Shown here: positions 10,036 to 33,975 of the stretch, one piece after another
Layout: every line of letters begins with the position of its first letter
Numbering within the stretch: position 1 is the stretch's first letter
Source: an uncultured Acidimicrobiia bacterium
GTDB taxonomy: Bacteria; Actinomycetota; Acidimicrobiia; Spongiisociales; UBA11373
NCBI GenBank assembly: GCA_964440905.1
Contig: CAYTTU010000104.1
Coordinates: 1 to 42,068 of the forward strand
Direction: 5' to 3'
Length of the DNA stretch: 42,068 bases
Program-made: the position numbers and the translations under genes
The notes under the pieces: model-generated
The model's database searches: none
What the model was told of the DNA's origin: nothing
The model's input: only the letters and a program-made list of their open reading frames with translations

Positions 10036-10044
10036 GAGGAAGCG

Positions 10045-10108
10045 GTCAGCTGTCAGCTATCAGCTTTCAGCCAGACGCCTCTTCGCCCATCGCTCATCGC
10101 CCATCGCC
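10045..10108. repeat. heptamer arrays GTCAGCT x4 (10045-10072) and CATCGCY x4 (10081-10108)
   Basis: Direct reading: GTCAGCT GTCAGCT ATCAGCT TTCAGCC, then CTTCGCC CATCGCT CATCGCC CATCGCC. Confidence 0.9.
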
Positions 10109-13424: not shown

Positions 13425-13515
13425 GAGACCTTCCGTGTGGCGGACGGCACAATCTAACGAGGCAGGAATGCTCCCCGGCGGGCAATCCGTCGCTGCCCCC
13501 GGTTAGGTTGACCCC

Positions 13516-16428
13516 GTGACCGAGATCAGGCTGGGACCGGGGGATTGGGATACGGCGCTCGCCGACGCCTCCGGACCGCAACTGGTGGTCGCCGGTCCCG
13601 GTGCGGGCAAGACCGAGTTCCTGGTCCGCCGGACCCGTCATCTCATCGCCTCCGGGGTGCCGCCGGAGTCGATCCTGCTCCTCGCCTTTTCCCGGCGCGG
13701 CGCCGCCGAGCTGCGCACCCGGGTCTCCGCCGGCCTCACCCGCTCGTTCAGCGTGGTGGCGGCGGCGACGTTCCACTCCCTGGCGATGCGGCTCCTCGAG
13801 GCCCACGGTCCCATCGGGGGATGGCAGCGCACTCCGACATTGCTCACCGGACCCGAGCATGTCGAGTTGGTGGCCGAGCTGCTCGCCGCCGAGGACCCTG
13901 CTGGCTGGCCGCTTCCGTTCCGCACGGTTCTGGCCAGCCGGGCCTTTGCCGAGGAGGTGGCCGACTTCGTACTGCGCGCCGCCGAACGGCTCGCCGAGCC
14001 GGACGATCTGGAAGCGATGGGCCGCGCCGACTGGCGCGCCCTTCCCGGTTTCGTGCGCCGCTACCGGGACTCCCTGGTGGAGCGGGGCCGCATCGACTAC
14101 GGGACCCTCCAGGTGGAGGCGCTTCGGATCCTTGACCATCCCGAGACCGCTTCCGGTCTCGCCGCAACGTTCTCCCACGTACTGGTGGACGAGTACCAGG
14201 ACACCACGGTGGCCCAGGCTCGCATCTCCGAGCACCTTGCCGCGGTGCACCGCAACCTCACGGTCGCCGGCGATCCCTATCAATCGGTGTACTCGTTCCG
14301 CGGGGCGGAGCTCACCAACGTTGCCGAATTCCCCGACCGGTTCCGCGATGCCTCCGGACAGCCGGCGCGCCGCATCGTGCTCACCCATTCGTTCCGCGTT
14401 CCGGCCGCCATCCTCGATGCCGCGGTGCGGCTCACCTCTGGGGCGGGTCTCCCCGGATCCGCCGGGCCGGTCGAGCCCGCCCCCGGGATCGGTGCAGTCG
14501 AGACCTACGGATTCGACCAACAGTCGGGCGAGGCGGAGTGGATCGCCGCCGAGTTGCAGCGGCTCCACCTGGTCGATCGCATCCCCTATCGGCGTATGGG
14601 GGTTCTGGTGCGCTCCAAGCGCAGATTCCTCCCCGAGCTGTCGCGAGCACTGGACCGGAGGCGGATCCCCCACGCCCGCCCCGACACCCGGCTGGCAGAC
14701 CATCCTGCGGTGCGCCCCGTGCTCGATCTGGCCGAGGCGGCCTGCGGAGATACCGGGGCACTGCGCCGGGTGCTGATGGGGCCGCTGGTGGCGCTCACTC
14801 TGTCCGCCACCCGGGAGATCGAACGCCGTGCCTCGGTAGAGGGATGGACCGTGGCGCTTCAGGGCCGCGGCGAAGCGGTGGATCTGGTCCGCGGCTTGTT
14901 GGCCGAGCCGGCATGGGCCACTACCGATGCGGCCGCCGACGGGTTCTGGACACTGTGGACCGCCCTTCCCGGTTTGCCGGCAATTGCGCTGGCCGATGCC
15001 GACAACCGCCGGGCGCTGGCTTCTTTCTCCCAGGCGCTGGAGCGGTTGCGGGAGCGTGACCCCGGAGCCGGGCTGGCGGGTTACGCCGCCATGATGCGCC
15101 GCGAGGACTTCGAGGCCGAGCCGCTCCTCTCGCTGCGCGACGCCGGTGCCGACCGAGTGACCCTCACCACTTTGCATCAGGCCAAGGGGATGGAGTTCGA
15201 GGTGGTGTTCATCGCCGATGCCCGCGAGGGGGTGCTGCCTGACCTGCGGGCACGCGACTCACTGCTGGGAACCCGCCACTTGTCACCGGCATTGAGCGGC
15301 GACGACCGGGCCTACGCCCGGTTCCGGGTGCAGGAAGAGCGCCGTCTGGCGTACACCGCCATGTGCCGGGCCAGCCGGCGCGTGGTGTGGACCTGCACCG
15401 TCGGCTCGCCGGACCACACCGAGGGGACCCCGAGCCGCTTCCTCGCCCTGGTGGCGGGGCGTCCCCTCGACGAAGCGGTGCGTCCTCCGGACGAAACCAC
15501 CCGGCCCACCACGCCGCGCGACGCCGAAGCGTGGTTGCGAAGACGACTCGGCGACCCCTCCCTCCCCGCTGCCGAGCGTATCGCCGCCCTCGGCGCACTT
15601 GCCGAAGGCGATTGGAGGCCGCGCCCGATCACAGAGTTCGCCGGCATTCTGGCGCATGGTCCGGACACCGGGCTGATCGACCCCGAACCGCGGCTCTCCC
15701 CCAGCCAGGCCGAGTCCTACGCCGACTGCCCGCGCCGCTACGCCTTCGAGCGGCTGCTGCGGATCAGCGACGGCGGTTCGAAGAGCGCCTCGCTGGGAAG
15801 CGTGCTGCACCGGGTCCTGGAGATCGCCGAGCGCGATGCGGTCGCCGCGGGCCGCGACCACGGAGAGGTCGAGCACGCCGTGGAGGTGTTCGCCGCCGAG
15901 TTCGATCCCGCCGAATTCGACGGACCCCCGTGGTCGGACTCGTGGCACCGACGCGGCGAGCGCATTCTGCGCCACCTCTACGAGTACTGGCCGGGCAAAG
16001 GCCCGGCGGTGGGATTCGAGAGCGCGGTGTCGCATCAACTCGACGGAGTCACCTGGGTGGGACGGGTCGATCGCGCCGAGCAACGGTCCGACGGGGTTCA
16101 CATCATCGACTACAAGACCGGGACCTCGGTCAAGAAGCTCGACGAGGCCGCTGGGGCGGTGCAGCTCGGGTTCTACGTGCTCGCCTCCGGGGAGGGGGTG
16201 ACGGGCGCCGAGTTCTGGTATCCCGGCGACTCCCCGGGCAAGCGCAAGAGCGTCACGGTGCGCCGCTTCGAGATGAACCGGCTTCCCGAGGTGCGCGACG
16301 AGATGCTGCGGGTGCAGGTGGGGATTCTCGCCGAGCAGTGGCCCCCCACCCCCGGCGACCACTGCGAGCGCTGCCCGGTGCGCATCGTCTGTCCGGAGTG
16401 GCCCGAGGGTCGAGAGGCGTATTCGTGA
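13516..16428 (+). CDS. adnA: ATP-dependent helicase-nuclease subunit AdnA (UvrD-like motor + RecB-type nuclease)
   Basis: 970 aa with a GTG start. GPGAGKTE Walker A, VDEYQDT, a C-terminal IIDYKTG nuclease motif and CERCPVRIVC. It is the first gene of a coupled pair, as in mycobacterial adnAB. Confidence 0.8.
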   Translation: MTEIRLGPGDWDTALADASGPQLVVAGPGAGKTEFLVRRTRHLIASGVPPESILLLAFSRRGAAELRTRVSAGLTRSFSVVAAATFHSLAMRLLEAHGPIGGWQRTPTLLTGPEHVELVAELLAAEDPAGWPLPFRTVLASRAFAEEVADFVLRAAERLAEPDDLEAMGRADWRALPGFVRRYRDSLVERGRIDYGTLQVEALRILDHPETASGLAATFSHVLVDEYQDTTVAQARISEHLAAVHRNLTVAGDPYQSVYSFRGAELTNVAEFPDRFRDASGQPARRIVLTHSFRVPAAILDAAVRLTSGAGLPGSAGPVEPAPGIGAVETYGFDQQSGEAEWIAAELQRLHLVDRIPYRRMGVLVRSKRRFLPELSRALDRRRIPHARPDTRLADHPAVRPVLDLAEAACGDTGALRRVLMGPLVALTLSATREIERRASVEGWTVALQGRGEAVDLVRGLLAEPAWATTDAAADGFWTLWTALPGLPAIALADADNRRALASFSQALERLRERDPGAGLAGYAAMMRREDFEAEPLLSLRDAGADRVTLTTLHQAKGMEFEVVFIADAREGVLPDLRARDSLLGTRHLSPALSGDDRAYARFRVQEERRLAYTAMCRASRRVVWTCTVGSPDHTEGTPSRFLALVAGRPLDEAVRPPDETTRPTTPRDAEAWLRRRLGDPSLPAAERIAALGALAEGDWRPRPITEFAGILAHGPDTGLIDPEPRLSPSQAESYADCPRRYAFERLLRISDGGSKSASLGSVLHRVLEIAERDAVAAGRDHGEVEHAVEVFAAEFDPAEFDGPPWSDSWHRRGERILRHLYEYWPGKGPAVGFESAVSHQLDGVTWVGRVDRAEQRSDGVHIIDYKTGTSVKKLDEAAGAVQLGFYVLASGEGVTGAEFWYPGDSPGKRKSVTVRRFEMNRLPEVRDEMLRVQVGILAEQWPPTPGDHCERCPVRIVCPEWPEGREAYS

Positions 16429-19400
16429 ACGCCGACCCGCTCTTTACCCCGACGCCGGAGCAGGAGGCGGTGATCACCCATCCCCTCGAGCCGCTGCGGG
16501 TGGCGGCCGGTGCCGGAGCGGGCAAGACCGGCACCATGGCGCGCCGCCTCGCCCACTTCGTCACCGCAGGCGAGATCGATCCCGAAGAGGCGCTGGGGAT
16601 CACCTTCACCAACAAGGCGGCGGCGGAGCTGGCGGAGCGGCTGCGCCGCACCCTTCCGGAGGCCGCCGCCGACGGGCGCGAGGTCGAGGTGACCACCTAT
16701 CACGGCTTCGCCCACGGGCTGTTGCGGGAGTTCGGAACGCTGGTCGGTATCGATCGCACCGCCCGGATCATCACCCCCGGCTATGCCCGCCAGCTGATCC
16801 GCGACGCCATAGCCGCCGAGCCCCGCCCCGGACTCGACCTGATCCAGCCCGGCCGCGTGGTGGACCGAATCGCCGGCCTCGCCTCGTCGCTGGGGGACCA
16901 CCTGCTGGAGCCCGCAGCGCTACTCGACGACGCCACCGACGAGGTCGCCTCCGGGCGCAACCTGCTGGCCGGGGTCATCGCCGAGTACCGGGAACGTAAG
17001 GGCCGCCTAGGGGTCGTCGACTTCGGTGACCTGGTGGCCATGGCACACCGCCTGGTCACCACCCATGCAGAGATCGCAGCGCGGATCCGGGGCCGTTACC
17101 GCATCGTGTTGCTCGACGAGTATCAGGACACCAACCCCGGTCAGCGCGAATTGCTGCGGGCGATATTCGGAGACGGGTTCCCGGTCACCGCGGTGGGCGA
17201 CACCGACCAAACGATCTTCGAGTGGCGCGGTGCCTCGCCGCGCAACTTTGAGGAGTTCCCCCATCACTTCCCCCGCAGCGATGGCACCGCGGCACTCACC
17301 CTCGATCTGTCGGTGACCTGGCGCAACGACTCCGCCATCGTGGCCGCCGCCAATTCGGTGCGGGGACGGCTCACCCGTCCCGGGCCGCTGGAGCGACTAG
17401 TGGCCCGACCCGACGCCGGTCCGGGCAGCATCGTGACCCATTGGGCCCGCACCTCACGCGACGAGGCGCGCTGGCTTGCCGCCGAGGTGGCGGCCCACCA
17501 CGAGACCGGGCTGCCGTGGCGGCAGATGGCGGTGCTGTTCCGCAAGCACCTGCAGATGGCGATGGTGCGCGACGCCCTGGTGGAACGCGGCATTCCGGTG
17601 GAGGTCGCCTCATTGGGCGGACTGCTCGAGGTGCCCGAGGTGGTGGAACTGCATTGCTGGTTGCGGGTGCTGGGTCGTCCCGACGATGCGGTCGCCCTGA
17701 GTCGGCTCCTTACCGGAGCGCGCTTTCGACTCGGTCTGGGCGATCTCGCACCGCTGGTGCGCTGGGTGCGCGCCCGCACCCGGGCCGACGCCGATGAAGA
17801 GTCCGCCGTTGGCTGGGCGCTGCTCGAAGCGGTCGACGATCTGGAGCGAGTCGGCGGGATCGACCCCGAGGCGCACCGGCGCCTCGAGGCCTTCCGGAGC
17901 CGTTACCGCTCGCTGCTGGTCACCGCCCAGGGGGTCAGCCTGGTCGAGCTGTGCCGACGCATCCTGGATGAGACCGACGTCTGGGCCGAGGTCGAGGCGC
18001 TCGACGACGCCGCCCGGCTCTCGGCCCGGCTCAATCTCTACCGGTTCCTCGACCTCGCCGAGGAATGGAGCCCGCTCGAAGGGGCGCCCTCACTTTCCGC
18101 CTTCCTCGATCACCTCGACCTCCTCGCCGACGAAGCATCGTCGGGTGAGCTCGACACCGCCCGGGTCAGCGGCGCCGATGCGGTGCCGTTGCTCACCGTG
18201 CATCGCGCCAAGGGCCTGGAGTGGGATGTGGTGTTCCTCCCCGCACTGGCCGACAAGGTGTTCCCAGGGCGAGTGATCCAGTACGAGGATCCCGTGACCG
18301 TCCCCTCGGTGCTCCCCTACCGACTCCGCCTCGATTCGGGCGACCTCCCCGAGCTGCCCGAGGACGAGAAGGAGCGCCGTCGGATTCTCAAGGAGATGCA
18401 CGATGAACAGGAGTGGCGCACCGCGTACGTGGCGGTGACCCGGGCGCGCCACACGCTGTATGGGTCCGGGGCCTACTGGACGGGTGGGGCCACGGCCCGC
18501 GATCCGAGCGAACTGTTCGTCCTGCTCGACGGGATCGGCCTTCCCGCCCCGGACCGCGCCACAGAGCCCGGGGATCCGCCGGCGGTGTGGCGGGAGGCGG
18601 CGACCGCACCGGCTCCCGATCCCCTGTTCCCCGACGGGCACCGCGCCGCTCTGGCCGCTACTGCGGCAGACCCCGAGGTCCCCGAACGGATCGCCGCGGC
18701 CCAAGGACTGGGCGAGTCGTACGCTCGCATCGTGGAGCAGCTGCACCTCGAGTTGGCCGGGCTTCCCGGACCGGTGACCGCAGCGGACGAACCCGTCCCC
18801 TTCACCGCATCGGTGACCGGGATGGTGACCCTCGCCGGTTGCCCGCTGCGCTTTCGATGGGCTGAGCTGGATCGGCTCCCGCGCCATCCCACACCGGCGG
18901 CCCGCAGAGGGGTCGAGTTACATCGCCGCATCGAGATGCACAATCGCGGCGCGGCCGCATTCGAGGAAGCCGATGCCGGCTTCTACGACGCCGTCGGGGA
19001 GGAACGCGCCCCGGACAGCGCGTTCGAGCGCTATCAGCGCTCGAGGTTTGCCGCGGTGCGGCCCATCCTGGTCGAGGCCCCATTCACCCTGGTCGTCGGC
19101 GAGGCCCGCATCTCGGGACGGATCGATGCGGTGTACGAGGACGAGGCCGGCTGGGAGGTGGTCGACTTCAAGAGCGGACGGGCCGCCGACGATCCGACGC
19201 GGCGCGTCCAGCTCGAGGCGTACGCCCTCGCCGTCGCCGAGGCCGGGCTCGCCGGGGGGCGATCCCCGGGAACCATCCGGGTGACCTTCGCCTACTGCGG
19301 TGGCGCCGAGGTGGAGGAGGTCACCGAGACCGTAGATGCGGCCTGGCTGAAGGGGGCCCGGGAGCATTTCGCCACGCTGGTCTCGACGGCTGCCGCCGCC

Positions 19401-19493
19401 GAGCATCCCGCCCGGCCCTCGCCGTCGTGCCGGCGTTGCGACTTCCTCCATATGTGCCCGGCGGGCACTGCCTGGATGGCGGCCAACGGGTGA
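16425..19493 (+). CDS. adnB: ATP-dependent helicase-nuclease subunit AdnB
   Basis: 1022 aa from GTG 16425, a GTGA overlap with the adnA stop. AGAGKTG Walker A, LLDEYQDTN, VHRAKGLEWD, a C-terminal VVDFKSG nuclease motif and CRRCDFLHMC. The upstream 354 codons of the long ORF overlap adnA and are rejected. Confidence 0.8.
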   Translation: MNADPLFTPTPEQEAVITHPLEPLRVAAGAGAGKTGTMARRLAHFVTAGEIDPEEALGITFTNKAAAELAERLRRTLPEAAADGREVEVTTYHGFAHGLLREFGTLVGIDRTARIITPGYARQLIRDAIAAEPRPGLDLIQPGRVVDRIAGLASSLGDHLLEPAALLDDATDEVASGRNLLAGVIAEYRERKGRLGVVDFGDLVAMAHRLVTTHAEIAARIRGRYRIVLLDEYQDTNPGQRELLRAIFGDGFPVTAVGDTDQTIFEWRGASPRNFEEFPHHFPRSDGTAALTLDLSVTWRNDSAIVAAANSVRGRLTRPGPLERLVARPDAGPGSIVTHWARTSRDEARWLAAEVAAHHETGLPWRQMAVLFRKHLQMAMVRDALVERGIPVEVASLGGLLEVPEVVELHCWLRVLGRPDDAVALSRLLTGARFRLGLGDLAPLVRWVRARTRADADEESAVGWALLEAVDDLERVGGIDPEAHRRLEAFRSRYRSLLVTAQGVSLVELCRRILDETDVWAEVEALDDAARLSARLNLYRFLDLAEEWSPLEGAPSLSAFLDHLDLLADEASSGELDTARVSGADAVPLLTVHRAKGLEWDVVFLPALADKVFPGRVIQYEDPVTVPSVLPYRLRLDSGDLPELPEDEKERRRILKEMHDEQEWRTAYVAVTRARHTLYGSGAYWTGGATARDPSELFVLLDGIGLPAPDRATEPGDPPAVWREAATAPAPDPLFPDGHRAALAATAADPEVPERIAAAQGLGESYARIVEQLHLELAGLPGPVTAADEPVPFTASVTGMVTLAGCPLRFRWAELDRLPRHPTPAARRGVELHRRIEMHNRGAAAFEEADAGFYDAVGEERAPDSAFERYQRSRFAAVRPILVEAPFTLVVGEARISGRIDAVYEDEAGWEVVDFKSGRAADDPTRRVQLEAYALAVAEAGLAGGRSPGTIRVTFAYCGGAEVEEVTETVDAAWLKGAREHFATLVSTAAAAEHPARPSPSCRRCDFLHMCPAGTAWMAANG

Positions 19494-26431: not shown

Positions 26432-27537
26432 CTCCCGTCGAGGAGCGCCGCCGCCTCGTCGGCGTCGAGCCCGAAACGGCGTAGGGTCGCCGCGGGGTCG
26501 TCGCCCCGGCGCAGTGCCGCCGCGGTCCGTTCGAAGCGCGGCGCCGGGGCGGGCTGGGCGACCCCGGCAACGTCAACAAAGGTGCCGCGGGCGCGCAGGT
26601 GCGGATCGCCGGCGGCTTCGAGCGGGGTGAGCACCGGAGCAACACAGGCGTCGCTCGCTGCGAAGTGCTTAGCCCAGTCGTCCCGCGTTCTTGTGGCGAA
26701 GACCGCACCAAGGCGCTCCGCGGTACTCGCCCATCCGGAACGGTCGTACTGGGCGGGCAGACCGACGGGGTCGATGCCGAGACCGGCGAGCAACGCCGCA
26801 TAGAACGCCGGCTCCAGGGCACCGACGGCGACAAAGCGGTCGTCGGCGGTTCGGTAGCAGCGGTAGAAGGGGGCACCACCGTCGAGCAGGTTGTCGCCGC
26901 GCCGCTCGCTCCACAGCCCGGCGCCTACCAGCCCATGGTGCATCGCCATCAGCAACGCGGTGCCATCGACCATGGCGGCATCGATGACTTGGCCCATCCC
27001 CGACGCCGCCCGTTCCACCAGTGCGGCGAGCACCCCGGTGACCAGCAGCATCCCGCCGCCGCCGAAGTCGGCGACCAGGTTGAGCGGCGGTGGCGGCGGG
27101 GTGTCGGGGGACCCGATGGGCTGCAACGCTCCCGCCAGGGCTATGTAGTCGATGTCATGACCGGCCTCGGCGGCGCGCGGACCGGACTGCCCCCACCCGG
27201 TGATGCGCCCGTACACCAGTCGGGGATTGTGTTCCCGGCAGATGTCGGGCCCGATGCCGAGACGCTCCGCCACCCCGGGACGGAATCCCTCGATGAGCAC
27301 GTCGGCTCCGGCGACGAGACGCAGCACCCGTCTCACCCCCTCGGGCCGTTTGAGGTCGATCGCCAGAATCGCGGCGCGGCTCCGCAGCAGTGGATCGCCG
27401 CTCACCGCCGACGGCGACCCGGGACGCTCCACCCGCACCACCTCGGCACCGAGGTCGGCGAGGACCATGGCGGCAAACGGGCCCGGCCCGATCGAGGCGA
27501 TCTCTACCACACCGATGCCGGCGAGGGGACCCATCAC
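26428..27537 (-). CDS. family III CoA-transferase (CaiB/BaiF; alpha-methylacyl-CoA racemase-like)
   Basis: About 368 aa. GPLAGIGVVEIASIGPGPFAAMVLADLGAEVVRVERP is the typical N-terminus. The start (GTG 27537 or ATG 27534) overlaps the sbcC stop codon. Confidence 0.85.
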   Translation of the reverse strand: MMGPLAGIGVVEIASIGPGPFAAMVLADLGAEVVRVERPGSPSAVSGDPLLRSRAAILAIDLKRPEGVRRVLRLVAGADVLIEGFRPGVAERLGIGPDICREHNPRLVYGRITGWGQSGPRAAEAGHDIDYIALAGALQPIGSPDTPPPPPLNLVADFGGGGMLLVTGVLAALVERAASGMGQVIDAAMVDGTALLMAMHHGLVGAGLWSERRGDNLLDGGAPFYRCYRTADDRFVAVGALEPAFYAALLAGLGIDPVGLPAQYDRSGWASTAERLGAVFATRTRDDWAKHFAASDACVAPVLTPLEAAGDPHLRARGTFVDVAGVAQPAPAPRFERTAAALRRGDDPAATLRRFGLDADEAAALLDGS

Positions 27538-30056
27538 TCGGTCCCGGCGCCTGAAACGACATGAGTGACTCCAGTGACGGCATCACGGTCGAGGACGATG
27601 AGGTCGTCGAACCGGTCCCGTAACTCCGGAACGTGGCTCACCACCACTACCAGACGGTCGCCGCCCGCCGCCACCAGGCGCTCCACTCCGTCCATCGCCA
27701 GGTCGAGGTGCTCGGTGTCGAGGCTGCCGAAGCCCTCGTCGAGGAGGAAGGAATCGAGCCTGCCACCCTCACGGCCGACGATCTCCGCCAGGGCGAGCGC
27801 CAGCGCCAGCGATGCCAGGAAGCTCTCTCCGCCGCTGAGCGAGCTGGCCCCGCGTACCTGATCGGCGGCGGCGAGGTCGACGACGTCGAAGGCGCCATCG
27901 TCGCTGAACCGGTAGCGCCCGGCGGTAAGTGTGGCGAAGTGCACTCCCGCCAGGTCTGCGAGCAGCCGCCGCCGCTCATCGAGCAGGAACTCGAGAAACT
28001 TCGATGGTGCCAGGTCCGCATGGAGTCGCTCCAGGAGGGTGCGCTGTCGAATGGTCGCGGCTTCCTCGGCGCCGAGGGACTCCAACTCGGCAAGGCGTTG
28101 CTCCAGGACCCGGGTCTCGGTCTCCAGGGCGGTGCGGGTCTTCATCGCCTCGGTGGCGATCTCGACGATGTCGTCGGTGGCGGCAAGACCCGCCTTCTCC
28201 AGCAGGTCGGTGCGGGCCCCGCGAGCCGCTCCGGCGGCGTGCTCAGAGCGCTGCAGCGCCTCGGCGGACTCGGTGCGACGCCGGGTCCATTCGGTGCGCA
28301 GCGCCTTGAGGGCGGTGTCGATGGCGCCGGCGTCGTCGCCGTCTCCGGGCTCGATGCCCAACCGGCCTGCCACCGCCGCCATCGAGGTGCGCAAGCGCTC
28401 GAGTCCACGCCGCGCCTCGGCGTGCTCGGTGGCAGCGAGGCGCCGCTCCTTCTCCGCCTGGGACTCCGCCTCCCGCTCCCGACGCAACACCACCTCGGCC
28501 TCCTCGACCCGCGCCCGCAGCGCGCCGAGCGCCTCCACCGGATCCCCTGGGCCGAGCCGCTCTCCCAGCTCGTTCTCGAGTTCGGCAACCGCGACACCCG
28601 CCGCCGTGCCGACGTCGGCTGCCTCGGCCGCGGCGATGCGCTCGGCGTCGGCTCGCTCGGTTGCCGCGGTGTGCCGAGCCCGGGCGGCGGCGGCCTGCGC
28701 CCCGGACTCGGCCACCCTGGTGCGCGCCTCGACCGCGGCGGCTTCGGCGCTGCGGGCGGCGGCCGCCACCGGCTCGACATCGACCATCCCGATCAATGGG
28801 GGCAACGTGGCCACCTTCTGGGCGCACACCGGGCATGGCTCACCAGCCACCAGGGCAACTCGCAGCGTGGCAGCCCGATCGGCATCGTGGGCGGCGTGCA
28901 GCACCCCCTGGGCCGACGCCGCAGTGGTCTCGGCCTCGGCGGCAGCCTCGGCGGCGCCGACAGCCGCCTGCTCCGCCACACTCAGCGCCGCGGCGGCAGA
29001 CTGCACCGCCTCGTCGGCGGTGACGAGGGCAGCGGCGGACCGCTGCTCCCTTTGCGCCGCCTCGCGGTGCCGATTCCGGGCGGCACCGAGGCCGGCCACA
29101 GCGTCGCCCAAGTCCACCATGGCGCGCTGCCCGCCAACCGACGCCAGCACCTCTGCGGCGCGGGTGGCGGCCGCCGCTGTGGCTGCGGTGGCGGCCGCCG
29201 CAGCGCGTTCGGCGAGAGAGATGCGCTCGGCGGCAGCCGCGGCGGCGGCGAACAGACCCGCGGTGTCGGCGTGGTTGGGAATGCGGTCGCCGATCTCGTC
29301 CAGCGAGGCGGATTGCTCGACCGCGGCCGCCCTTCCCGCCTCGGCGGTGCGCAGTGCCTCCTCCGCTTGCATCACGCTGCCACGCAGGGCCTCCAGCGTC
29401 TGAGCCCGTTGATCGGCGGCAACGAGCTCGCTGCCCAGGGAGTCGAGGCGACGCCGGTCCCCCTCCGCGGAGGTGCGACGGGCGGTGAGGTGCTGCAGGG
29501 ACATCCCGATGACGTCGAGGCGGCCCTTGATCACATCACGCATTGCGTCGATCCGATCGAATCCGAATACGCCCTTGAGCACCTGGTTGCGGTCGGTGCC
29601 GGTGGCCTCGAGGAATGCGGCGAACTGGTTCTGGGCGAGCAGCACCGAGCGCCGAAAGGCGTCGAATTCCATCCCGATCAATGCGGTGATCCGTTCCGTC
29701 ACCTCGCGGGCCTTGTCGGCGACCTCCTCCTCGGGGCCGTCGGCACTGCGCCGGTACAGGGTGTGGGCGGCGGCACCGCGGCGGCGCAGGGCGCGCACCA
29801 CCTTCCACTCCACCCCGTCCACTTCGAACACCAGCTCCACCTGTAGTGCATCGCGTCGCTGGTTGATGAGGGCGCTGGTCTCGGTCCCCGATCGCGGGGT
29901 CCTGCCGTAGAGGGCGAACGAGATCGCATCGAGGATCGACGACTTACCAGAACCGATGGGTCCCACGATCCCCACCAAGCCTCGGCCCCTGAAATGGAAA
30001 CTGGTTGGCTCGGCGAACGAGCGAAAACCGCGCAACGTGAGCTCACGGGGCCGCAT
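27534..30056 (-). CDS. sbcC: SbcC/Rad50-family DNA repair ATPase
   Basis: 840 aa from ATG 30056. GPIGSGKSSILDAI Walker A, a long Ala-rich coiled coil with a CPVC zinc hook, LSGGESFLASLALALA signature, LLDEGFGSLD Walker B. Confidence 0.9.
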   Translation of the reverse strand: MRPRELTLRGFRSFAEPTSFHFRGRGLVGIVGPIGSGKSSILDAISFALYGRTPRSGTETSALINQRRDALQVELVFEVDGVEWKVVRALRRRGAAAHTLYRRSADGPEEEVADKAREVTERITALIGMEFDAFRRSVLLAQNQFAAFLEATGTDRNQVLKGVFGFDRIDAMRDVIKGRLDVIGMSLQHLTARRTSAEGDRRRLDSLGSELVAADQRAQTLEALRGSVMQAEEALRTAEAGRAAAVEQSASLDEIGDRIPNHADTAGLFAAAAAAAERISLAERAAAAATAATAAAATRAAEVLASVGGQRAMVDLGDAVAGLGAARNRHREAAQREQRSAAALVTADEAVQSAAAALSVAEQAAVGAAEAAAEAETTAASAQGVLHAAHDADRAATLRVALVAGEPCPVCAQKVATLPPLIGMVDVEPVAAAARSAEAAAVEARTRVAESGAQAAAARARHTAATERADAERIAAAEAADVGTAAGVAVAELENELGERLGPGDPVEALGALRARVEEAEVVLRREREAESQAEKERRLAATEHAEARRGLERLRTSMAAVAGRLGIEPGDGDDAGAIDTALKALRTEWTRRRTESAEALQRSEHAAGAARGARTDLLEKAGLAATDDIVEIATEAMKTRTALETETRVLEQRLAELESLGAEEAATIRQRTLLERLHADLAPSKFLEFLLDERRRLLADLAGVHFATLTAGRYRFSDDGAFDVVDLAAADQVRGASSLSGGESFLASLALALALAEIVGREGGRLDSFLLDEGFGSLDTEHLDLAMDGVERLVAAGGDRLVVVVSHVPELRDRFDDLIVLDRDAVTGVTHVVSGAGTE

Positions 30057-31203
30057 CGCCGACCTCCTCCCGAATCTCCTCGAAGAGGGTGAGTAGGTCG
30101 GACTCCGCCGGACCACCGTGGGCCTCGACGTGATACTCCCCGTAGAGCTCACCCCAGGGACGCCCGGCGGTGGTCGGTCGCGACGCGGCGCTGCGGGGAT
30201 ACTCGGCGCGTACCTTGACCACCAGCGGGTAACGCGCTCGGGCGCGATCCATCAGGTCGGGGTCGGGCCCGTCGGCGATGACGGTCAGGTCGAGAAACGC
30301 CTCGTCGAGATCGTCGCGCTCGGTGAGGGACTCAAAGGTACCGGTGGCGCGCACCAGGCGCCGCCCGCGGCGCAGCGGCACCGAACGGACCTTTGCGGGC
30401 AGGCCAGGGGTGGTCTCCACCACGACGACCCGCTTGACCTCGCCGGCCTCACCGAAGTCGAGTTGCAGCAGCGAACCGGCGTACTCGGCAGGAACCCGTG
30501 CCCCGGGCACCGACTGCGGGGCATGGATGTGACCGAGGGCGATGTAGTCCAGGCTGGCTGGGATCGCAGCCTCGGTTGTGGCGTAGGCCTGGCCGATGTG
30601 AAGGTCACGCTCGCCGCGCGGAGCGGCGGTGTCGATCTTCACACCGCCCACCATGAAGTGCCCGAGTAGGAAGGTGGCGTCATCGGGACCGGCCATGGCA
30701 CCAAGGGCGGCCCCGTAGGCCTCGGCGATCCGCTGCACCTTGGTGGCATAAGTGGTGTACCAATCGGCGGTTTCCGCCATGAAGTCGACCACCTGGGCGG
30801 CGCGCAGGAATGGGAACCCGGCGACCAGAGCCCTCCCGGCGGCGGTCTCGAGCGCGATCACCCCACCTTCGTCCGGGGGACGGATCCGCCCGACCAGATA
30901 CACGCCGTGCGGGGCGAGCAGCGGTGCCAGGGTCTCGAACAGCTCCGTGGAGTCGTGGTTGCCGGCGACCACGACGACGGGACGGTCTGCCCCGAGGCGC
31001 ACCAGGCTCTCCAGGCCGAGGCGCAGCGACTCCACCGGTGGCAATGGCCGGTCGAACAGGTCGCCGGAGTGCAGTACCAGATCCACCTTCTCGGCAGCAG
31101 CGATCTCGGCCACCTCGTCGATCACCGCGGCGTGATCCTCCATCCGATCGTGGCGCTCCAGCCGCTTGCCGACATGCCAATCGGACGTGTGGAGGACTTT
31201 CAT
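30043..31203 (-). CDS. sbcD: SbcD/Mre11-family nuclease
   Basis: 386 aa. MKVLHTSDWHVGK, GDLFD, GNHD and GHIH phosphoesterase motifs. 14-nt overlap with sbcC. Confidence 0.9.
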   Translation of the reverse strand: MKVLHTSDWHVGKRLERHDRMEDHAAVIDEVAEIAAAEKVDLVLHSGDLFDRPLPPVESLRLGLESLVRLGADRPVVVVAGNHDSTELFETLAPLLAPHGVYLVGRIRPPDEGGVIALETAAGRALVAGFPFLRAAQVVDFMAETADWYTTYATKVQRIAEAYGAALGAMAGPDDATFLLGHFMVGGVKIDTAAPRGERDLHIGQAYATTEAAIPASLDYIALGHIHAPQSVPGARVPAEYAGSLLQLDFGEAGEVKRVVVVETTPGLPAKVRSVPLRRGRRLVRATGTFESLTERDDLDEAFLDLTVIADGPDPDLMDRARARYPLVVKVRAEYPRSAASRPTTAGRPWGELYGEYHVEAHGGPAESDLLTLFEEIREEVGDAAP

Positions 31204-31233
31204 ACGCGGTCGTATAGGTCCCGGCGCCTCAGA

Positions 31234-31263
31234 AGCTCTGAGCTGACAGCTGACAGCTCAGAG
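31234..31263. repeat. heptamer array AGCTCTG AGCTGAC AGCTGAC AGCTCAG forming a 10-bp-stem hairpin (31236-31263)
   Basis: Direct reading. CTCTGAGCTG pairs with CAGCTCAGAG around an 8-nt loop. The array fills the 61-bp spacer between the herA stop and the sbcD start. Confidence 0.8.
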
Positions 31264-31264
31264 G

Positions 31265-32977
31265 TCATCGCAGCCCATCAAACGCGTCCTCATCCCCGTC
31301 GGCTACTTCTTCCTTGCGGGTCGCCCAGGGTGGGAAGGGGAAGTCCACCACCAGGGGGACCGGAATCGATGGCTGGGACAGGACCATCGTTCCGGGCTTG
31401 AGCAGCCGGGCCCGGGCCCGGGTGGAGGGGAGCATCCACCCGTACTCGGATCGCTCCGCCTCAGCGGCATCGAGACGCCCCGCCACCCGCAGAGCGGCGT
31501 TCTCCAGCACTTCGGCGGCGACCCGCGACGCGGTCTGCTGGGCCCCGACCAGGATCACTCCGAGCGACCTCCCCCGCTGGGCGATGTCGATCAGCATGTC
31601 TTTTATCGGGCTCTGCCCATCACGCGGGGCGTACTTGTTCAGCTCGTCGAGCACCACCACCGATAGCGGGAGCCTCTGCCCGGTCCCCTCCTTTTCGGCG
31701 AAGGCCTCGGCGAGTAGGGCTCCCACCACGAACCGCTGTCCGAGATCGTGCAAAGTGTTGAGAGCGACGACGGTGACCTGTGCGGCGGAGCGGTCGATGC
31801 GGTTGCTCTCACCGGCGCGGATCAGGTGCCCGACTCGCACCACGGCGGCGTGCAGCCGGCGCATGAAGGCCGACACCGTCCCCGGCTGCACCCGTCCAGT
31901 CCACTTGATGTCGGGCTCCCCGTCGGCGGGATCGAGGTACTCCTCGAGCGCCATCACCAGCGTGGCCAGATCGGAGATGACCCGCTCCCCCTTGTCGGGT
32001 CGCACCGTGGCGCCCCGCTGGTGACCCTCCGACGGATCGCGCAACACCACCGCCCCCGGCACTCCGGCCACGTCCACGGCAAAGCGGCGCAGCTGCGACT
32101 CGATCCGCTCTGCCACGAACGAGATCTGATTGCGGGCGTCGGAGGCATCGGTGAACAGGAACCGGAGCAAACCCTCGTCGATGAACTCGCGCAGCGTCCA
32201 GGCGAACACGGTGACGTCCTGGCGTCCGGCGATGTCGGGCACCATCACGTCGCCCGAGCGGGGACGGGGCGGCGCCCACAGCGAAACCGACGGGAAGGGG
32301 CCGGGCTCCACACCCAGCGCCGCCCACTGCGCGGCTGCCTCAGGAGTGAAGTGACGGTTGGGCTTGTCGAGCCAGATCAGGTCCTCACCCTTGACGTTGA
32401 ACACCAGCACCCGCAGGTTCTTGCCGGCGTCGCCGGTGATGTCACGCCTCCCGGTGAGCATCCGCAGAAAGAACAGAGCGAACGAGGTCTTGGTGGCGAC
32501 CCCGGAGATGCCCGAGATCGACATGTGACCTCCCTTACGCCCGTCGAAGAAGTCGAGATCGATGTACAGCGGCTCGCCGTCGCGGCCTATCCCCACGGGG
32601 AGAGGGCGGCCCATCTCATCGACGTAGAGGGCCTTGTCGCGCTCGGCGCCCCGGGCGCGACGCACCTCCCCGCCCGGATCGGGAGCCACCCAGACCTCGG
32701 GAGCAACCCGGGTGATCGCCACCTGGGCAGAACGGACCTTGGCGGCGGGCAGCGAACCCTCGGCGGCGATACGGAAAGTGTCCGACTCGAAGGAAGCGCC
32801 CTCGTATACCGCCTCCACCTCGGTGACCACACCGTACGTGGCGACGGATCCGGCGCCGGGCACGTCGGTGTCGACCACGACCAGGTCGTCGAGCTGCAGG
32901 TAGGCATCGTCGCCCATCACTACCCGGAACTCCCGGGTGTTGGTGTGCTGACTGCCGATCACCCGCCCTACCGTCAT
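31265..32977 (-). CDS. herA: HerA-like hexameric ATPase/helicase (FtsK-HerA superfamily, DUF87)
   Basis: 570 aa from ATG 32977, an ATGA overlap with the nurA stop. HAS-barrel-like N-terminus (VGRVIGSQHTNTREFRVVM), P-loop SGISGVATKTS, Walker B VVVLDELNKYAP, VILVGAQQ. The upstream 235 codons of the long ORF are rejected. Confidence 0.75.
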   Translation of the reverse strand: MTVGRVIGSQHTNTREFRVVMGDDAYLQLDDLVVVDTDVPGAGSVATYGVVTEVEAVYEGASFESDTFRIAAEGSLPAAKVRSAQVAITRVAPEVWVAPDPGGEVRRARGAERDKALYVDEMGRPLPVGIGRDGEPLYIDLDFFDGRKGGHMSISGISGVATKTSFALFFLRMLTGRRDITGDAGKNLRVLVFNVKGEDLIWLDKPNRHFTPEAAAQWAALGVEPGPFPSVSLWAPPRPRSGDVMVPDIAGRQDVTVFAWTLREFIDEGLLRFLFTDASDARNQISFVAERIESQLRRFAVDVAGVPGAVVLRDPSEGHQRGATVRPDKGERVISDLATLVMALEEYLDPADGEPDIKWTGRVQPGTVSAFMRRLHAAVVRVGHLIRAGESNRIDRSAAQVTVVALNTLHDLGQRFVVGALLAEAFAEKEGTGQRLPLSVVVLDELNKYAPRDGQSPIKDMLIDIAQRGRSLGVILVGAQQTASRVAAEVLENAALRVAGRLDAAEAERSEYGWMLPSTRARARLLKPGTMVLSQPSIPVPLVVDFPFPPWATRKEEVADGDEDAFDGLR

Positions 32978-33912
32978 GCCGCCGCCTCCACCGCAGTGCG
33001 CAGCGCCCGCAGCACCAGACCGGCATCGCCGAGGCGGTGGCGCAGATCCCGCTCCAGGGCGGCGATGGGCACCAGATTCTGTGGGGCCCGGGGATCGATG
33101 TGAGCCTCCGAGCCGACCTGGGGAAGCACCGCGGCCGAACGGTCGGCCACCGCGGCCACCTCGTCGCGGGGCAGCGACGCCGATGCCTCGGCGCGGGCGA
33201 TTCCCGACCAGGAGTGTCCGACGCCGCGGTCGGTGAGGCGGAGATACCACGAGTAGCGCCGGAACCTCCCCTCCCCAATGGTGAACAGCGGGGTCCGCTG
33301 CCCGGCGGGGAGCACCCCGATGATGCCGGCGTGGGTAGGCGGCAGGTAGGAGCGGCGGTGGCTCTTGATGTAGCCGATCTTGGGGACATCGGTGTACTCG
33401 TAGAGCGGCCCATCGGCGACCACGAAGTACCCCGAGCGAGCCAGGTCCTCGGCCAGTTCCGCCTCGGCGCGGCGCATGGCGTCGTGGAACGCCATGACCA
33501 ACGACGCCGGGTCGTCGCCGGGAACCGATGCGGTGCGGTACGACAGCCCCAGGGGAAGGTCGGGGATCTGGGGCTGGCGACCCGACGAAAGGAGGGCGAC
33601 CCGGCGCACCGTTGGCTGCTCGATGGTGCTGCGGTGCTCGGTGCGCCACCACACCGCGGCCCCCACGCCGAACGAACCGCACAGGCCGGTGATCGGACCG
33701 GCATCGTCGTCGAGAACGAGGCGGGCATCGACGCGGCGCACCCCGTCGACGAATGCCACCACCGGGATGCCGTCGTCATGTCCCGGGATCGGCTCCCAGG
33801 GCCGCCGCTCCACGGTGAGATCGACCGCCCCCTCAGCCGGCGTGAGCTCCGCATCGGGCTCGATCGACGATCCGTACTCCGGTGCCCAGCCCTCGACGTG
33901 CAGGCGGCTCAT
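32974..33912 (-). CDS. nurA: NurA-family nuclease
   Basis: 312 aa. AFVDGV, VVADGPL and IGYIKSH segments fit the NurA catalytic Asp / DG / K-S motif order. Obligate gene neighbour of herA. Confidence 0.65.
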   Translation of the reverse strand: MSRLHVEGWAPEYGSSIEPDAELTPAEGAVDLTVERRPWEPIPGHDDGIPVVAFVDGVRRVDARLVLDDDAGPITGLCGSFGVGAAVWWRTEHRSTIEQPTVRRVALLSSGRQPQIPDLPLGLSYRTASVPGDDPASLVMAFHDAMRRAEAELAEDLARSGYFVVADGPLYEYTDVPKIGYIKSHRRSYLPPTHAGIIGVLPAGQRTPLFTIGEGRFRRYSWYLRLTDRGVGHSWSGIARAEASASLPRDEVAAVADRSAAVLPQVGSEAHIDPRAPQNLVPIAALERDLRHRLGDAGLVLRALRTAVEAAA

Positions 33913-33953
33913 GGTGGCGGATGGTAGCGATGGGGAGTGACGGCTTTCGGAGC

Positions 33954-33975
33954 CGTGAGTGTCAGCTGACAGCTC
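33954..33975. repeat. heptamer units CGTGAGT GTCAGCT GACAGCT, including the perfect palindrome GTCAGCTGAC
   Basis: Direct reading, in the divergent nurA / UMF1-MFS intergenic region. Preceded by a CGGCT-TTCGG-AGCCG hairpin. Confidence 0.75.

What the first reader, a model, noticed from the sequence alone, without database searches (positions are those of the whole stretch)
27534..33912. Archaeal-style four-gene end-resection cluster nurA-herA-sbcD(Mre11)-sbcC(Rad50) in a bacterium that also carries AdnAB 8 kb away
The genes nurA (32974-33912), herA (31265-32977), sbcD (30043-31203) and sbcC (27534-30056) are co-directional. Start/stop overlaps link nurA to herA and sbcD to sbcC. Linkage of herA, mre11, rad50 and nurA is established for thermophilic archaea. 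Bacterial NurA/HerA pairs are known (for example in Deinococcus), but a contiguous cluster with SbcCD is much less documented.

The same window also encodes AdnAB (13516-19493) and a stand-alone RecB-type nuclease (11360-12136). That makes three distinct DNA-end-processing machines within 22.5 kb. HerA-family ATPases also occur in anti-phage systems, so a defence rather than repair role cannot be excluded from sequence alone.
Basis: partly seen in the sequence, partly recalled or inferred. Interest (0 to 1): 0.6.

Follow-up and report, generated by a model that had tools for sequence, protein, structure and literature searches.

The report
Bacterial NurA-HerA-SbcCD DNA-break repair operon
Four adjacent genes in this uncultured actinobacterium (class Acidimicrobiia) encode a DNA-break-trimming machine; the same operon is common in its phylum and sits behind a promoter type known to respond to DNA damage, so it is real and under-documented but ordinary.

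Summary
nurA (32974-33912), herA (31265-32977), sbcD (30043-31203) and sbcC (27534-30056) are intact, co-directional and partly overlapping.

HerA and NurA are orthologues of the Deinococcus radiodurans HerA-NurA complex (PDB 7F6D; E 1e-121 and 5e-37). SbcD and SbcC are bacterial-type, and SbcC keeps its CxxC zinc hook.

The linkage is not chance:
- In a sample of 401 genomes of the phylum, I fetched the surroundings of 80 HerA orthologues. 74 have sbcD just downstream and 65 have all four genes.
- Two gene orders occur, nurA-first (as here) and nurA-last (the archaeal order). Each order follows the HerA and SbcD trees.
- HerA-linked SbcD forms a lineage apart from the unlinked SbcD of the same phylum.

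A RecA-NDp-like (PafBC-type) DNA-damage promoter lies about 7 nt before the first gene in 73 of 130 relatives (0.3 expected). In this window a diverged copy of the same motif precedes nurA, adnA and the stand-alone nuclease, and pafA-pafB-pafC is present. That favours repair over phage defence.

The closeness of AdnAB is local synteny only.

One paper noted this cluster in Oceanithermus (2017), while a 2026 review denies such synteny. This scan has already reported the operon in more than 170 other genomes. It is a new member of a known kind, of moderate interest.

The parts
33921..33942 (-). RecA-NDp-like promoter CGTCACTC-N8-TACCAT. Its -10 element ends 8 nt before the nurA ATG, which implies a leaderless or near-leaderless mRNA.
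   Evidence: The position is homologous to the [T/C]GTC[A/G]-N11-TAnnnT motif found in 73 of 130 related loci. In this window the upstream box matches the published consensus at only 5 of 8 positions.
32974..33912 (-). nurA, 312 aa, a bacterial-type NurA nuclease. Motif I is VVAFVDG and motif II is FVVADGP.
   Evidence: 7F6D_H at E 4.9e-37; TM1739 at 2e-15.
31265..32977 (-). herA, 570 aa, a HerA/FtsK-type hexameric translocase of the Deinococcus type. It has an N-terminal beta-barrel, Walker A GISGVATKTS, Walker B VVVLDE and an RGRSLG motif.
   Evidence: 7F6D_B at E 1.1e-121, with the same unusual P-loop; AlphaFold2 mean pLDDT 90.2.
31236..31263 (.). Near-perfect 28-nt palindrome CTCTGAGCTGTCAGCTGTCAGCTCAGAG in the 61-nt herA-sbcD spacer. 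It is a copy of a repeat dispersed across the genome, not a signal specific to this cluster.
   Evidence: The 12-mer CAGCTGTCAGCT occurs 33 times in the genome against 1 for the control. It is not conserved at this place in relatives.
30043..31203 (-). sbcD, 386 aa, the Mre11-family nuclease subunit.
   Evidence: Metallophos plus SbcD_C; TIGR00619 at 148.5 bits, above its cut-off. It belongs to the HerA-linked SbcD lineage.
27534..30056 (-). sbcC, 840 aa, a short Rad50-family ATPase. It has Walker A GPIGSGKSS, a CPVC zinc hook in mid-protein, signature SLSGGESF, Walker B LLDEGFG and H-loop VSHV.
13488..13509 (+). RecA-NDp-like promoter CGTCGCTG-N8-TAGGTT, ending 6 nt before the adnA start.
13516..19493 (+). 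adnA and adnB. Each carries a UvrD-type helicase and a C-terminal PD-(D/E)XK nuclease. They form a second end-resection machine, predicted to be co-regulated with the cluster but not part of it.
11331..11352 (+). RecA-NDp-like promoter TGTCACTC-N8-TATAGT, ending 7 nt before the start of the stand-alone nuclease gene.
11360..12136 (+). Stand-alone PD-(D/E)XK (Cas4/AddB-like) nuclease, 258 aa.

Best explanation
This is a chromosomal housekeeping operon for processing broken DNA ends, predicted to be switched on by DNA damage. It is built from bacterial-type proteins.

Proposed mechanism (inferred from homologues):
1. SbcD-SbcC, the bacterial Mre11-Rad50, recognises and clips blocked, hairpinned or protein-bound ends.
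2. The HerA hexamer, docked on a NurA dimer, threads the duplex through its pore using ATP.
3. NurA cuts the strands. This yields resected ends for RecA, or degrades damaged DNA.

The four genes are inherited and exchanged as one module. In Actinomycetota the module is driven by a RecA-NDp-type promoter, the target of the PafBC activator. In this genome the same promoter type also precedes adnAB, the stand-alone PD-(D/E)XK nuclease and radA.

Shown here: gene identities, intact motifs, conserved linkage, co-divergence of HerA and SbcD, the promoter motif and its position, and the presence of pafA-pafB-pafC.

Inferred, not shown: co-transcription, induction by damage, physical contact between HerA-NurA and SbcCD, and the biochemical outcome.
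For: Orthology to the structurally solved D. radiodurans HerA-NurA complex holds for both proteins. The catalytic and ATPase motifs and the zinc hook are intact. The HerA model is confident.

Linkage:
- Of 80 HerA orthologues in a 401-genome phylum sample, 74 have co-directional sbcD downstream and 65 have all four genes.
- Of the 80 best named loci, 64 have all four genes. These include Chloroflexota, Thermoleophilia, Gemmatimonadota and Ca. Sysuimicrobiota; the Acidobacteriota-labelled loci are more mixed (all four genes in L015, herA-sbcD-sbcC in L052, none linked in L063).
- The cluster also occurs in a cyanobacterial plasmid and a Streptomyces plasmid.

Trees:
- The nurA-last order is confined to one 55-row HerA clade, SH-aLRT 91 (38 rows nurA-last, 17 with nurA not located), apart from one long-branch row, L156.
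- In the SbcD tree the two orders differ by a single change.
- The 17 unlinked SbcD from HerA-less genomes sit on one side of a branch with 100% support.

Promoter:
- tTGTCRgtg-N8-TAnnnT (consensus quoted from PMC5656591) with at most 1 mismatch lies at -60 to -20 in 18 of 129 loci, against 0.03 expected.
- The core GTCR-N11-TAnnnT is present in 73 of 130 loci against 0.28 expected, mostly ending 6-7 nt before the start codon.
- In the window, the only three GTC-core matches precede nurA, adnA and the nuclease gene.
- Genome-wide, the local pattern has five hits, all 4-8 nt before an ORF start, and one of them is radA.
- pafA is followed by two tandem WYL-domain genes.
- AdnAB is a published member of the PafBC regulon (PMC8223512).
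- A Chloroflexota relative has an SOS-box-like TCGAACGTGCGTTC instead.

Mobility: only 6 of 72,556 plasmid records carry this HerA type, and one phage record has a remote match.
Against: - The window's own promoter box matches the consensus at only 5 of 8 positions.
- The genome-wide count of the local pattern (5) equals the chance expectation (4.4). Only its placement is non-random, and three of the five sites defined the pattern.
- In the only two bacteria tested, D. radiodurans and T. thermophilus, deleting nurA-herA raises rather than lowers UV and mitomycin C resistance (PMC9960219). The complex is therefore not a simple pro-survival repair factor there.
- Within single GTDB families (f14, f27) three distinct HerA lineages occur, so whole-module horizontal replacement happens.
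- A Streptomyces plasmid copy lies beside Wadjet-like genes and an ImmA/IrrE protease gene.
Confidence: 0.75

Rival explanations
1. The module is an anti-phage or anti-plasmid nuclease system that destroys incoming linear or foreign DNA. In this reading SbcCD and HerA-NurA act like RecBCD or Wadjet against invaders.
For: - HerA ATPases drive known defence systems. The closest non-orthologous PDB hits to the HerA profile are the HerA chains of such entries (8XAU at 2e-07, 9C1M, 8YHO).
- There are weak PADLOC hits (mad8 at 1.3e-07, HerA at 7.4e-06).
- A 2026 review asserts a defence role for bacterial NurA-HerA (PMC13748450).
- The Streptomyces plasmid copy lies next to TIGR02678/TIGR02680/DUF2397 (Wadjet-like) and ImmA/IrrE genes.
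- Module-level horizontal transfer occurs.
- The knock-out phenotypes in Deinococcus and Thermus do not look like loss of repair.
Against: - The partner of HerA here is NurA, not Sir2 or DUF4297.
- The flanks are metabolic and transport genes.
- The locus is single-copy and sits at the same chromosomal place in close relatives.
- The HerA family is near-universal in some families (f14 24/26, f27 16/22), common in f23 (12/21) and not found in others (f19 0/21, f26 0/28). The sbcD search gives 17/21 for f23. This is not the patchy pattern of defence islands.
- A DNA-damage-type promoter is conserved in front of the operon and shared with adnAB and radA.
- This HerA type is almost absent from plasmids and phages.
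Confidence: 0.12
2. The module is a damage-induced DNA-degradation or fork-processing device that restrains recombination rather than promoting it. It might clear broken chromosome copies or reversed forks. AdnAB would then remain the true recombinogenic resection enzyme.
For: - nurA-herA deletion raises UV and mitomycin C resistance about 10-fold in D. radiodurans (PMC9960219).
- D. radiodurans NurA-HerA cuts both strands in vitro (same paper).
- All five genomes checked carry AdnAB together with the cluster, so the cluster is not a replacement for AdnAB.
Against: The organisms with that phenotype are exactly those in which nurA-herA is not linked to sbcCD. Nothing in the sequence separates this reading from productive resection.
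Confidence: 0.1
3. The adjacency of nurA-herA to sbcDC is a coincidence of local gene order, without functional coupling.
For: There is a 61-nt spacer with a palindromic repeat between herA and sbcD. 12 of 147 relatives have a promoter-like motif before sbcD. In Deinococcus and Thermus the two pairs are unlinked.
Against: The linkage is kept in 128 of 159 non-identical loci across several phyla and in two different gene orders. The HerA and SbcD trees are congruent, and the SbcD lineage is distinct from unlinked SbcD.
Confidence: 0.03

Closest known systems
Deinococcus radiodurans / Thermus thermophilus NurA-HerA complex (PDB 7F6D, 7WRW, 7WRX; PMC9960219, PMC5448004)
   Same: Both proteins are orthologous over their full length (E 1e-121 and 5e-37). 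HerA has the same unusual P-loop GISGVATKTS. nurA lies upstream of herA and is translationally coupled to it.
   Different: In Deinococcus and Thermus the pair is not linked to sbcCD. Here, and in most Actinomycetota carriers, it is fused into one operon with a dedicated SbcCD lineage behind a RecA-NDp-type promoter.
Oceanithermus profundus nurA-hepA-sbcD-sbcC cluster (noted by Blesa et al. 2017, PMC5448004)
   Same: The same four genes in the same order in a bacterium. That paper already read it as an archaeal-like double-strand-break repair architecture.
   Different: The paper treated it as a secondary recruitment of sbcCD in one genus. The survey here shows the linked state is the common one across phyla.
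herA-mre11-rad50-nurA operon of thermophilic archaea (Constantinesco et al. 2004; PMC2288612)
   Same: The same four functions in one operon. The sister bacterial clade even has the same gene order, with nurA last. The archaeal operon is UV-induced, and a damage-type promoter is predicted here.
   Different: The proteins are bacterial lineages. SbcD and SbcC score best to bacterial models. HerA and NurA are barely detectable, or not detectable, against the archaeal structures. The gene order in this window is nurA-first.
HerA-based anti-phage systems (Sir2-HerA, DUF4297-HerA; PDB 8XAU, 8WIV)
   Same: A HerA/FtsK-type ATPase core.
   Different: Similarity covers only the C-terminal ATPase part (E 2e-07 at best). 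There is no Sir2 or DUF4297 effector, and the locus is not in a defence island.
Mycobacterial PafBC / RecA-NDp DNA-damage regulon (PMC5656591, PMC6789036, PMC8223512)
   Same: The same promoter architecture (TGTCRGTG-like box, 8 nt, TAnnnT). AdnAB is a member. pafA-pafB-pafC is present in this genome.
   Different: nurA-herA-sbcDC is not named as a regulon member in the passages of the three PafBC papers I searched (term look-ups for sbcD, adnA and RecA-NDp only). The box is diverged in this genome (YGTCRCTS).

Membership tests
Bacterial (Deinococcus-type) NurA-HerA complex | HerA is homologous over its full length to a solved bacterial HerA | tested here: met
   phmmer against 7F6D_B gives E 1.1e-121 over residues 3-560. 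The 25-sequence profile gives E 9.4e-222.
Bacterial (Deinococcus-type) NurA-HerA complex | HerA has an N-terminal barrel and a RecA-like ATPase with Walker A, Walker B and an arginine-finger region | tested here: met
   GISGVATKTS (K163, T164), VVVLDE (D444, E445) and RGRSLG are invariant in 25 homologues. The AlphaFold2 model has mean pLDDT 90.2 and an all-beta N-terminus.
Bacterial (Deinococcus-type) NurA-HerA complex | NurA is homologous to solved bacterial NurA and keeps the 'DG' motifs I and II | tested here: met
   The profile hits 7F6D_H at E 4.9e-37 and TM1739 at 2e-15. D56-G57 and D167-G168 are invariant. Pfam NurA alone is just under its cut-off (20.6 against 21 bits).
Bacterial (Deinococcus-type) NurA-HerA complex | A HerA hexamer and NurA dimer assemble into a complex with ATP-driven nuclease activity | not testable with these tools
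   Needs biochemistry or a multimer model. Only the 4-nt nurA/herA overlap speaks for co-expression.
Archaeal herA-mre11-rad50-nurA operon | The four genes are contiguous and co-directional | tested here: met
Archaeal herA-mre11-rad50-nurA operon | Gene order is herA-mre11-rad50-nurA | tested here: not met
   The window has nurA-herA-sbcD-sbcC. The archaeal order is found in a sister clade (37 loci).
Archaeal herA-mre11-rad50-nurA operon | The proteins belong to the archaeal Mre11, Rad50, HerA and NurA lineages | tested here: not met
   SbcD scores 158.9 bits to sbcd_Bac against 57.6 bits to Mre11_Sulfo. SbcC scores 197 bits to TIGR00618 against 83 bits to Rad50. Sulfolobus HerA 4D2I is reached only at E 3.5e-4. 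No archaeal NurA structure is found at E <= 1.
SbcCD (bacterial Mre11-Rad50) | SbcD has the calcineurin-type phosphoesterase domain and the SbcD C-terminal domain, and scores above a curated cut-off | tested here: met
   Metallophos at 2.2e-17, SbcD_C at 9.9e-07, TIGR00619 at 148.5 bits against a cut-off of 77.65.
SbcCD (bacterial Mre11-Rad50) | SbcC has a split ABC ATPase head, a coiled coil and a CxxC zinc hook | tested here: met
   GPIGSGKSS, CPVC, SLSGGESF, LLDEGFG and VSHV are all present. At 840 aa it is shorter than the model proteins, so TIGR00618 is below its cut-off (197 against 478.5 bits).
HerA-based anti-phage defence systems | HerA is paired with a Sir2, DUF4297 or other defence effector and matches curated defence models | tested here: not met
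   The neighbour is NurA. There are only weak PADLOC hits (mad8 at 1.3e-07, HerA at 7.4e-06) and none for NurA.
HerA-based anti-phage defence systems | Patchy distribution within defence islands or on mobile elements | tested here: not met
   The flanks are housekeeping genes. Presence is coherent by lineage. Only 6 of 72,556 plasmid records and 1 remote phage record match. One plasmid copy does lie beside Wadjet-like genes.
PafBC / RecA-NDp DNA-damage regulon | The promoter motif tTGTCRgtg-N8-TAnnnT lies upstream of the gene | tested here: inconclusive
   The window has CGTCACTC-N8-TACCAT, with 5 of 8 matches in the box and correct spacing and -10 element. Relatives clearly meet the test: 18 of 129 loci at <= 1 mismatch against 0.03 expected, and 73 of 130 for the core against 0.28 expected.
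PafBC / RecA-NDp DNA-damage regulon | The regulator PafBC is encoded in the genome | tested here: met
   Two tandem WYL-domain ORFs (305 and 311 aa) lie directly downstream of pafA (TIGR03686 at 428 bits) on contig C96.
PafBC / RecA-NDp DNA-damage regulon | Transcription is induced by DNA damage and depends on PafBC | not testable with these tools
The organism is uncultured.

The most novel reading that the evidence does not exclude
The linked four-gene module, and not the isolated nurA-herA pair of Deinococcus and Thermus, is the typical and perhaps original state of bacterial NurA-HerA. In this reading HerA-NurA and a co-evolving SbcCD lineage work as one physically coupled machine that runs in parallel to AdnAB. 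The machine would be controlled by PafBC in Actinomycetota and by LexA in Chloroflexota. The puzzling knock-out phenotypes of the two model organisms would then come from studying the atypical, uncoupled case.
Probability: 0.45. Interest if true: 0.55.

Novelty: new member of a known kind. Interest (0 to 1): 0.35.

Why it matters
Bacterial end resection is usually described as RecBCD, AddAB or AdnAB, with RecJ/RecQ as the alternative. NurA-HerA is treated as an archaeal system with a few odd bacterial copies. [quoted passage not shown] The data here contradict that statement for a large part of Actinomycetota and for several other phyla.

The data also predict that the operon belongs to the DNA-damage regulon. 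That gives a concrete, testable framework in cultivable carriers, for example Nonomuraea or Streptomyces strains that carry the cluster. It could answer a question left open in 2015 (PMC4663267): whether SbcCD works with HerA-NurA in bacteria.

For this window in particular, nothing is unusual beyond being one more clean example.

Tried and rejected
- **Palindrome as an operator or mobile-element boundary.** I tested the palindrome TGTCAGCTGACA upstream of nurA and the 28-nt palindrome between herA and sbcD, which another note described as a 13-mer bracketing nurA-herA. Rejected. The 12-mer CAGCTGTCAGCT has 33 copies in the genome against 1 for the control. It also occurs at 10044-10062 in the window and is not conserved at these places in relatives.
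- **A conserved AdnAB / nuclease / NurA-HerA-SbcCD supercluster.** Rejected. AdnB lies about 7 kb from the cluster only in the same-family genome G119. It is on another large contig in G287 and 50 kb away in G291, and it is rarely within the flanks elsewhere.
- **A LexA box in the window.** None found; it was seen only in some relatives.
- **Consensus sigma-70 promoter and terminator scan.** Nothing useful.
- **Genome-wide weight-matrix scan for the promoter.** Specificity was low: 88 hits against 64 in the reversed control. The raw count of the local pattern equals chance. Only its placement is informative.
- **A conserved fifth gene in the 2.7-5.9-kb gaps that split the cluster in some relatives.** The inserts differ from locus to locus (a lipoprotein-like ORF, an RtcB-like ORF). 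I did not pursue this further.
- **Not run.** A fold search of the HerA model was unnecessary given the E 1e-121 sequence match.
Full report
**What is there**

The window is contig C104 of a 1.97-Mb, 86%-complete genome assembled from a metagenome. Its closest relatives are labelled Acidimicrobiia. On the minus strand lie four genes:
- nurA, 32974-33912
- herA, 31265-32977
- sbcD, 30043-31203
- sbcC, 27534-30056

nurA and herA overlap by 4 nt. sbcD and sbcC overlap by 14 nt. A 61-nt spacer separates herA from sbcD. HerA and SbcD are single-copy in the genome. The flanks encode a CoA-transferase, an ABC-2 permease, an Atg22-like MFS transporter and an ABC ATPase, so there is no mobile-element or defence context. 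AdnA/AdnB (13516-19493) and a stand-alone PD-(D/E)XK nuclease (11360-12136) are confirmed by their domains.

**Gene identities**

- Pfam alone is weak. NurA scores 20.6 bits against a cut-off of 21, and HerA has no hit.
- The reason is that both proteins belong to the bacterial clade typified by Deinococcus radiodurans. HerA matches chain B of PDB 7F6D over its full length at E 1.1e-121, and at 9.4e-222 with a 25-sequence profile.
- The odd P-loop GISGVATKTS, flagged by another reader, is identical in the Deinococcus protein. It is therefore a feature of the clade, not a defect.
- A NurA profile matches 7F6D chain H at 4.9e-37 and Thermotoga TM1739 at 2e-15. The two 'DG' motifs are invariant.
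- The HerA model is confident, with mean pLDDT 90.2.
- SbcD passes TIGR00619.
- SbcC is short (840 aa) but has Walker A, a CPVC zinc hook, the signature motif, Walker B and the H-loop.
- SbcD and SbcC score far better to bacterial models than to archaeal Mre11 and Rad50 models. Archaeal HerA is reached only at E 3.5e-4. 'Archaeal-style' therefore describes the gene set, not the ancestry.

**Is the linkage conserved?**

Yes, strongly.
- A scan of one genome per species found at least 597 loci that encode this HerA type.
- Among the best 80, which are named records, 64 have all four genes co-directional. Most of the rest are cut by contig ends. They include Acidimicrobiia, other Actinomycetota, Thermoleophilia, Chloroflexota/Dehalococcoidia, Gemmatimonadota (Palauibacter) and Ca. 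Sysuimicrobiota. The three Acidobacteriota-labelled loci are more mixed: L015 has all four genes, L052 has herA-sbcD-sbcC, and L063 has no sbcD or sbcC in the stretch held.
- In an even sample of 401 genomes of the phylum, 99 have a HerA match. I fetched about 9 kb on each side of 80 orthologues. Of these, 74 have sbcD downstream and 65 have all four genes.
- Two orders exist. nurA-herA-sbcD-sbcC occurs in 91 non-identical loci. herA-sbcD-sbcC-nurA, the archaeal order, occurs in 37.
- In the HerA tree, all but one long-branch row (L156) of the second order lie in one 55-row clade, SH-aLRT 91 (38 rows nurA-last, 17 with nurA not located).
- In the SbcD tree the two orders differ by one change. 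The 17 SbcD genes taken from HerA-less genomes of the same phylum sit on one side of a fully supported branch.
- The SbcCD of the cluster is thus a dedicated lineage that co-diverges with HerA.
- Presence is coherent by lineage: f14 24/26, f27 16/22, f19 0/21, f26 0/28.
- A single family can hold three HerA lineages, so the whole module is sometimes replaced horizontally.
- Plasmid copies exist but are rare, in 6 of 72,556 records. One, on a Streptomyces linear plasmid, lies beside Wadjet-like and ImmA/IrrE genes. One is on a cyanobacterial conjugative plasmid. Phages gave one remote hit.

**Regulation**

- Upstream of the first gene of the cluster, relatives carry the RecA-NDp promoter motif of Actinobacteria. 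The consensus is tTGTCRgtg-8 nt-TAnnnT, as quoted in PMC5656591.
- With at most 1 mismatch it is present in 18 of 129 loci, against 0.03 expected. With at most 2 mismatches it is present in 37 of 129, against 0.10 expected.
- The core GTCR-N11-TAnnnT is present in 73 of 130 loci against 0.28 expected. Its -10 element mostly ends 6-7 nt before the start codon, which is the geometry of a leaderless mRNA.
- The window has a diverged copy at the homologous place, CGTCACTC-N8-TACCAT at 33921-33942.
- The only other matches of that kind in the 42-kb window lie 6-7 nt before adnA (13488-13509) and before the stand-alone nuclease gene (11331-11352).
- Genome-wide, the local pattern has five hits. All are 4-8 nt before an ORF start, and one precedes radA. 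The count itself equals chance; only the placement is telling.
- The genome encodes pafA followed by two tandem WYL-domain genes, the layout of pafB and pafC.
- PafBC activates RecA-NDp promoters, and AdnAB is in its regulon (PMC6789036, PMC8223512).
- One Chloroflexota relative has an SOS-box-like TCGAACGTGCGTTC instead.
AdnAB is near the cluster only in the same family and is unlinked in more distant relatives.

**How it most likely works**

By homology, SbcCD opens or clips blocked and hairpin ends. HerA-NurA then translocates on the duplex and degrades it. This either feeds RecA or removes damaged DNA.

The defence reading is not excluded. It is disfavoured by the NurA partner, the weak PADLOC scores, the chromosomal and lineage-coherent distribution, and the damage-type promoter.

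One caution applies. In Deinococcus, deleting nurA-herA raises UV and mitomycin C resistance (PMC9960219), so the physiological output may be degradative rather than simply reparative. That organism lacks the sbcCD linkage.

**Comparison with what is known**

- The archaeal four-gene operon is classic.
- Bacterial NurA-HerA is solved structurally.
- Blesa et al. 2017 already noted sbcD-sbcC downstream of hepA in Oceanithermus profundus and read it as a secondary recruitment (PMC5448004).
- A 2015 paper left open whether SbcCD connects with HerA-NurA in bacteria (PMC4663267).
[quoted passage not shown] The survey here contradicts that statement.
- This scan's own notebook holds 186 earlier notes on the same operon in at least 173 genomes. 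Follow-ups reached the same conclusions: widespread, bacterial-type, probably damage-inducible. I consulted them after my own tests, and they agree.

**Side issue settled**

The 13-mer said to bracket nurA-herA is part of a palindromic repeat dispersed through the genome, with 33 copies against 1 for the control. It is not a boundary of the cluster.

**Verdict**

Noticed in passing
window 31236-31263, 33960-33971, 10044-10062; G000 genome-wide: A palindromic repeat built on CAGCTGTCAGCT / TGTCAGCTGACA is dispersed through the genome, with 33 exact 12-mer copies against 1 for the reversed control. It behaves like a REP-type intergenic element. It explains the '13-mer bracket' around nurA-herA.
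   Followed up: partly
window 26428-27537 (-): The start of a family III CoA-transferase gene overlaps the sbcC stop by 4 nt, so it may be co-transcribed with the repair operon. A CoA-transferase follows sbcC in several close relatives (L003, L005, L006, L015, L030) but not in more distant ones.
   Followed up: partly
G000 contig C214:1650-1671 (-) and C215:3230-3251 (-): The same promoter type lies 6 nt before a RadA/Sms-like ORF (CGTCACTC-N8-TAGGGT). A weaker version lies 6 nt before a UvrB-like ORF (TGTCCCAG-N8-TAACCT). Both ORFs were identified only from their N-terminal sequences, not by a profile search.
   Followed up: partly
G000 contig C96 (L186: 11-958, 1087-2004, 2001-2936): A pafA gene is followed by two tandem WYL-domain genes of 305 and 311 aa. 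This is the pafA-pafB-pafC layout of the Pup-proteasome locus.
   Followed up: partly
L164 (Streptomyces sp. BB1-1-1 linear plasmid, NZ_CP134205.1 413754-429385): A herA-sbcD-sbcC-nurA cluster sits directly beside an ImmA/IrrE metallopeptidase gene and a Wadjet-like set (DUF2397, TIGR02678, TIGR02680). This is a defence-island-like setting, unlike the chromosomal copies.
   Followed up: no
L029 (Chloroflexota genome assembled from a metagenome), about 44 nt upstream of nurA: An SOS-box-like palindrome TCGAACGTGCGTTC followed by TAGAAT replaces the RecA-NDp-like motif. This suggests LexA control of the same operon in Chloroflexota.
   Followed up: no
G041, G113, G193, G206, G232, G271, G284, G296, G307, G329 (family f24): A distant HerA-like paralogue (30-32% identity over the ATPase part, open frames of 640-710 aa) is present in 10 of 31 genomes of one family. 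None of the 31 genomes of that family has a detectable SbcD. Its partners were not examined.
   Followed up: no
L088, L110, L133, L141, L147, L149, L156, L159; G052 and G095: In some relatives the cluster is split by 2.7-5.9 kb of unrelated DNA, and by 10-14 kb in two genomes of one genus. The splits lie between herA and sbcD or between nurA and herA. The inserted ORFs differ between loci (for example lipoprotein-like or RtcB-like).
   Followed up: partly
L166, L167, L168 (G333, G037, G295): Three genomes have sbcD-sbcC about as similar to the window's as HerA-linked copies are, but no herA or nurA within about 9 kb and no HerA match in the genome. This looks like secondary loss of the HerA-NurA half.
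   Followed up: partly
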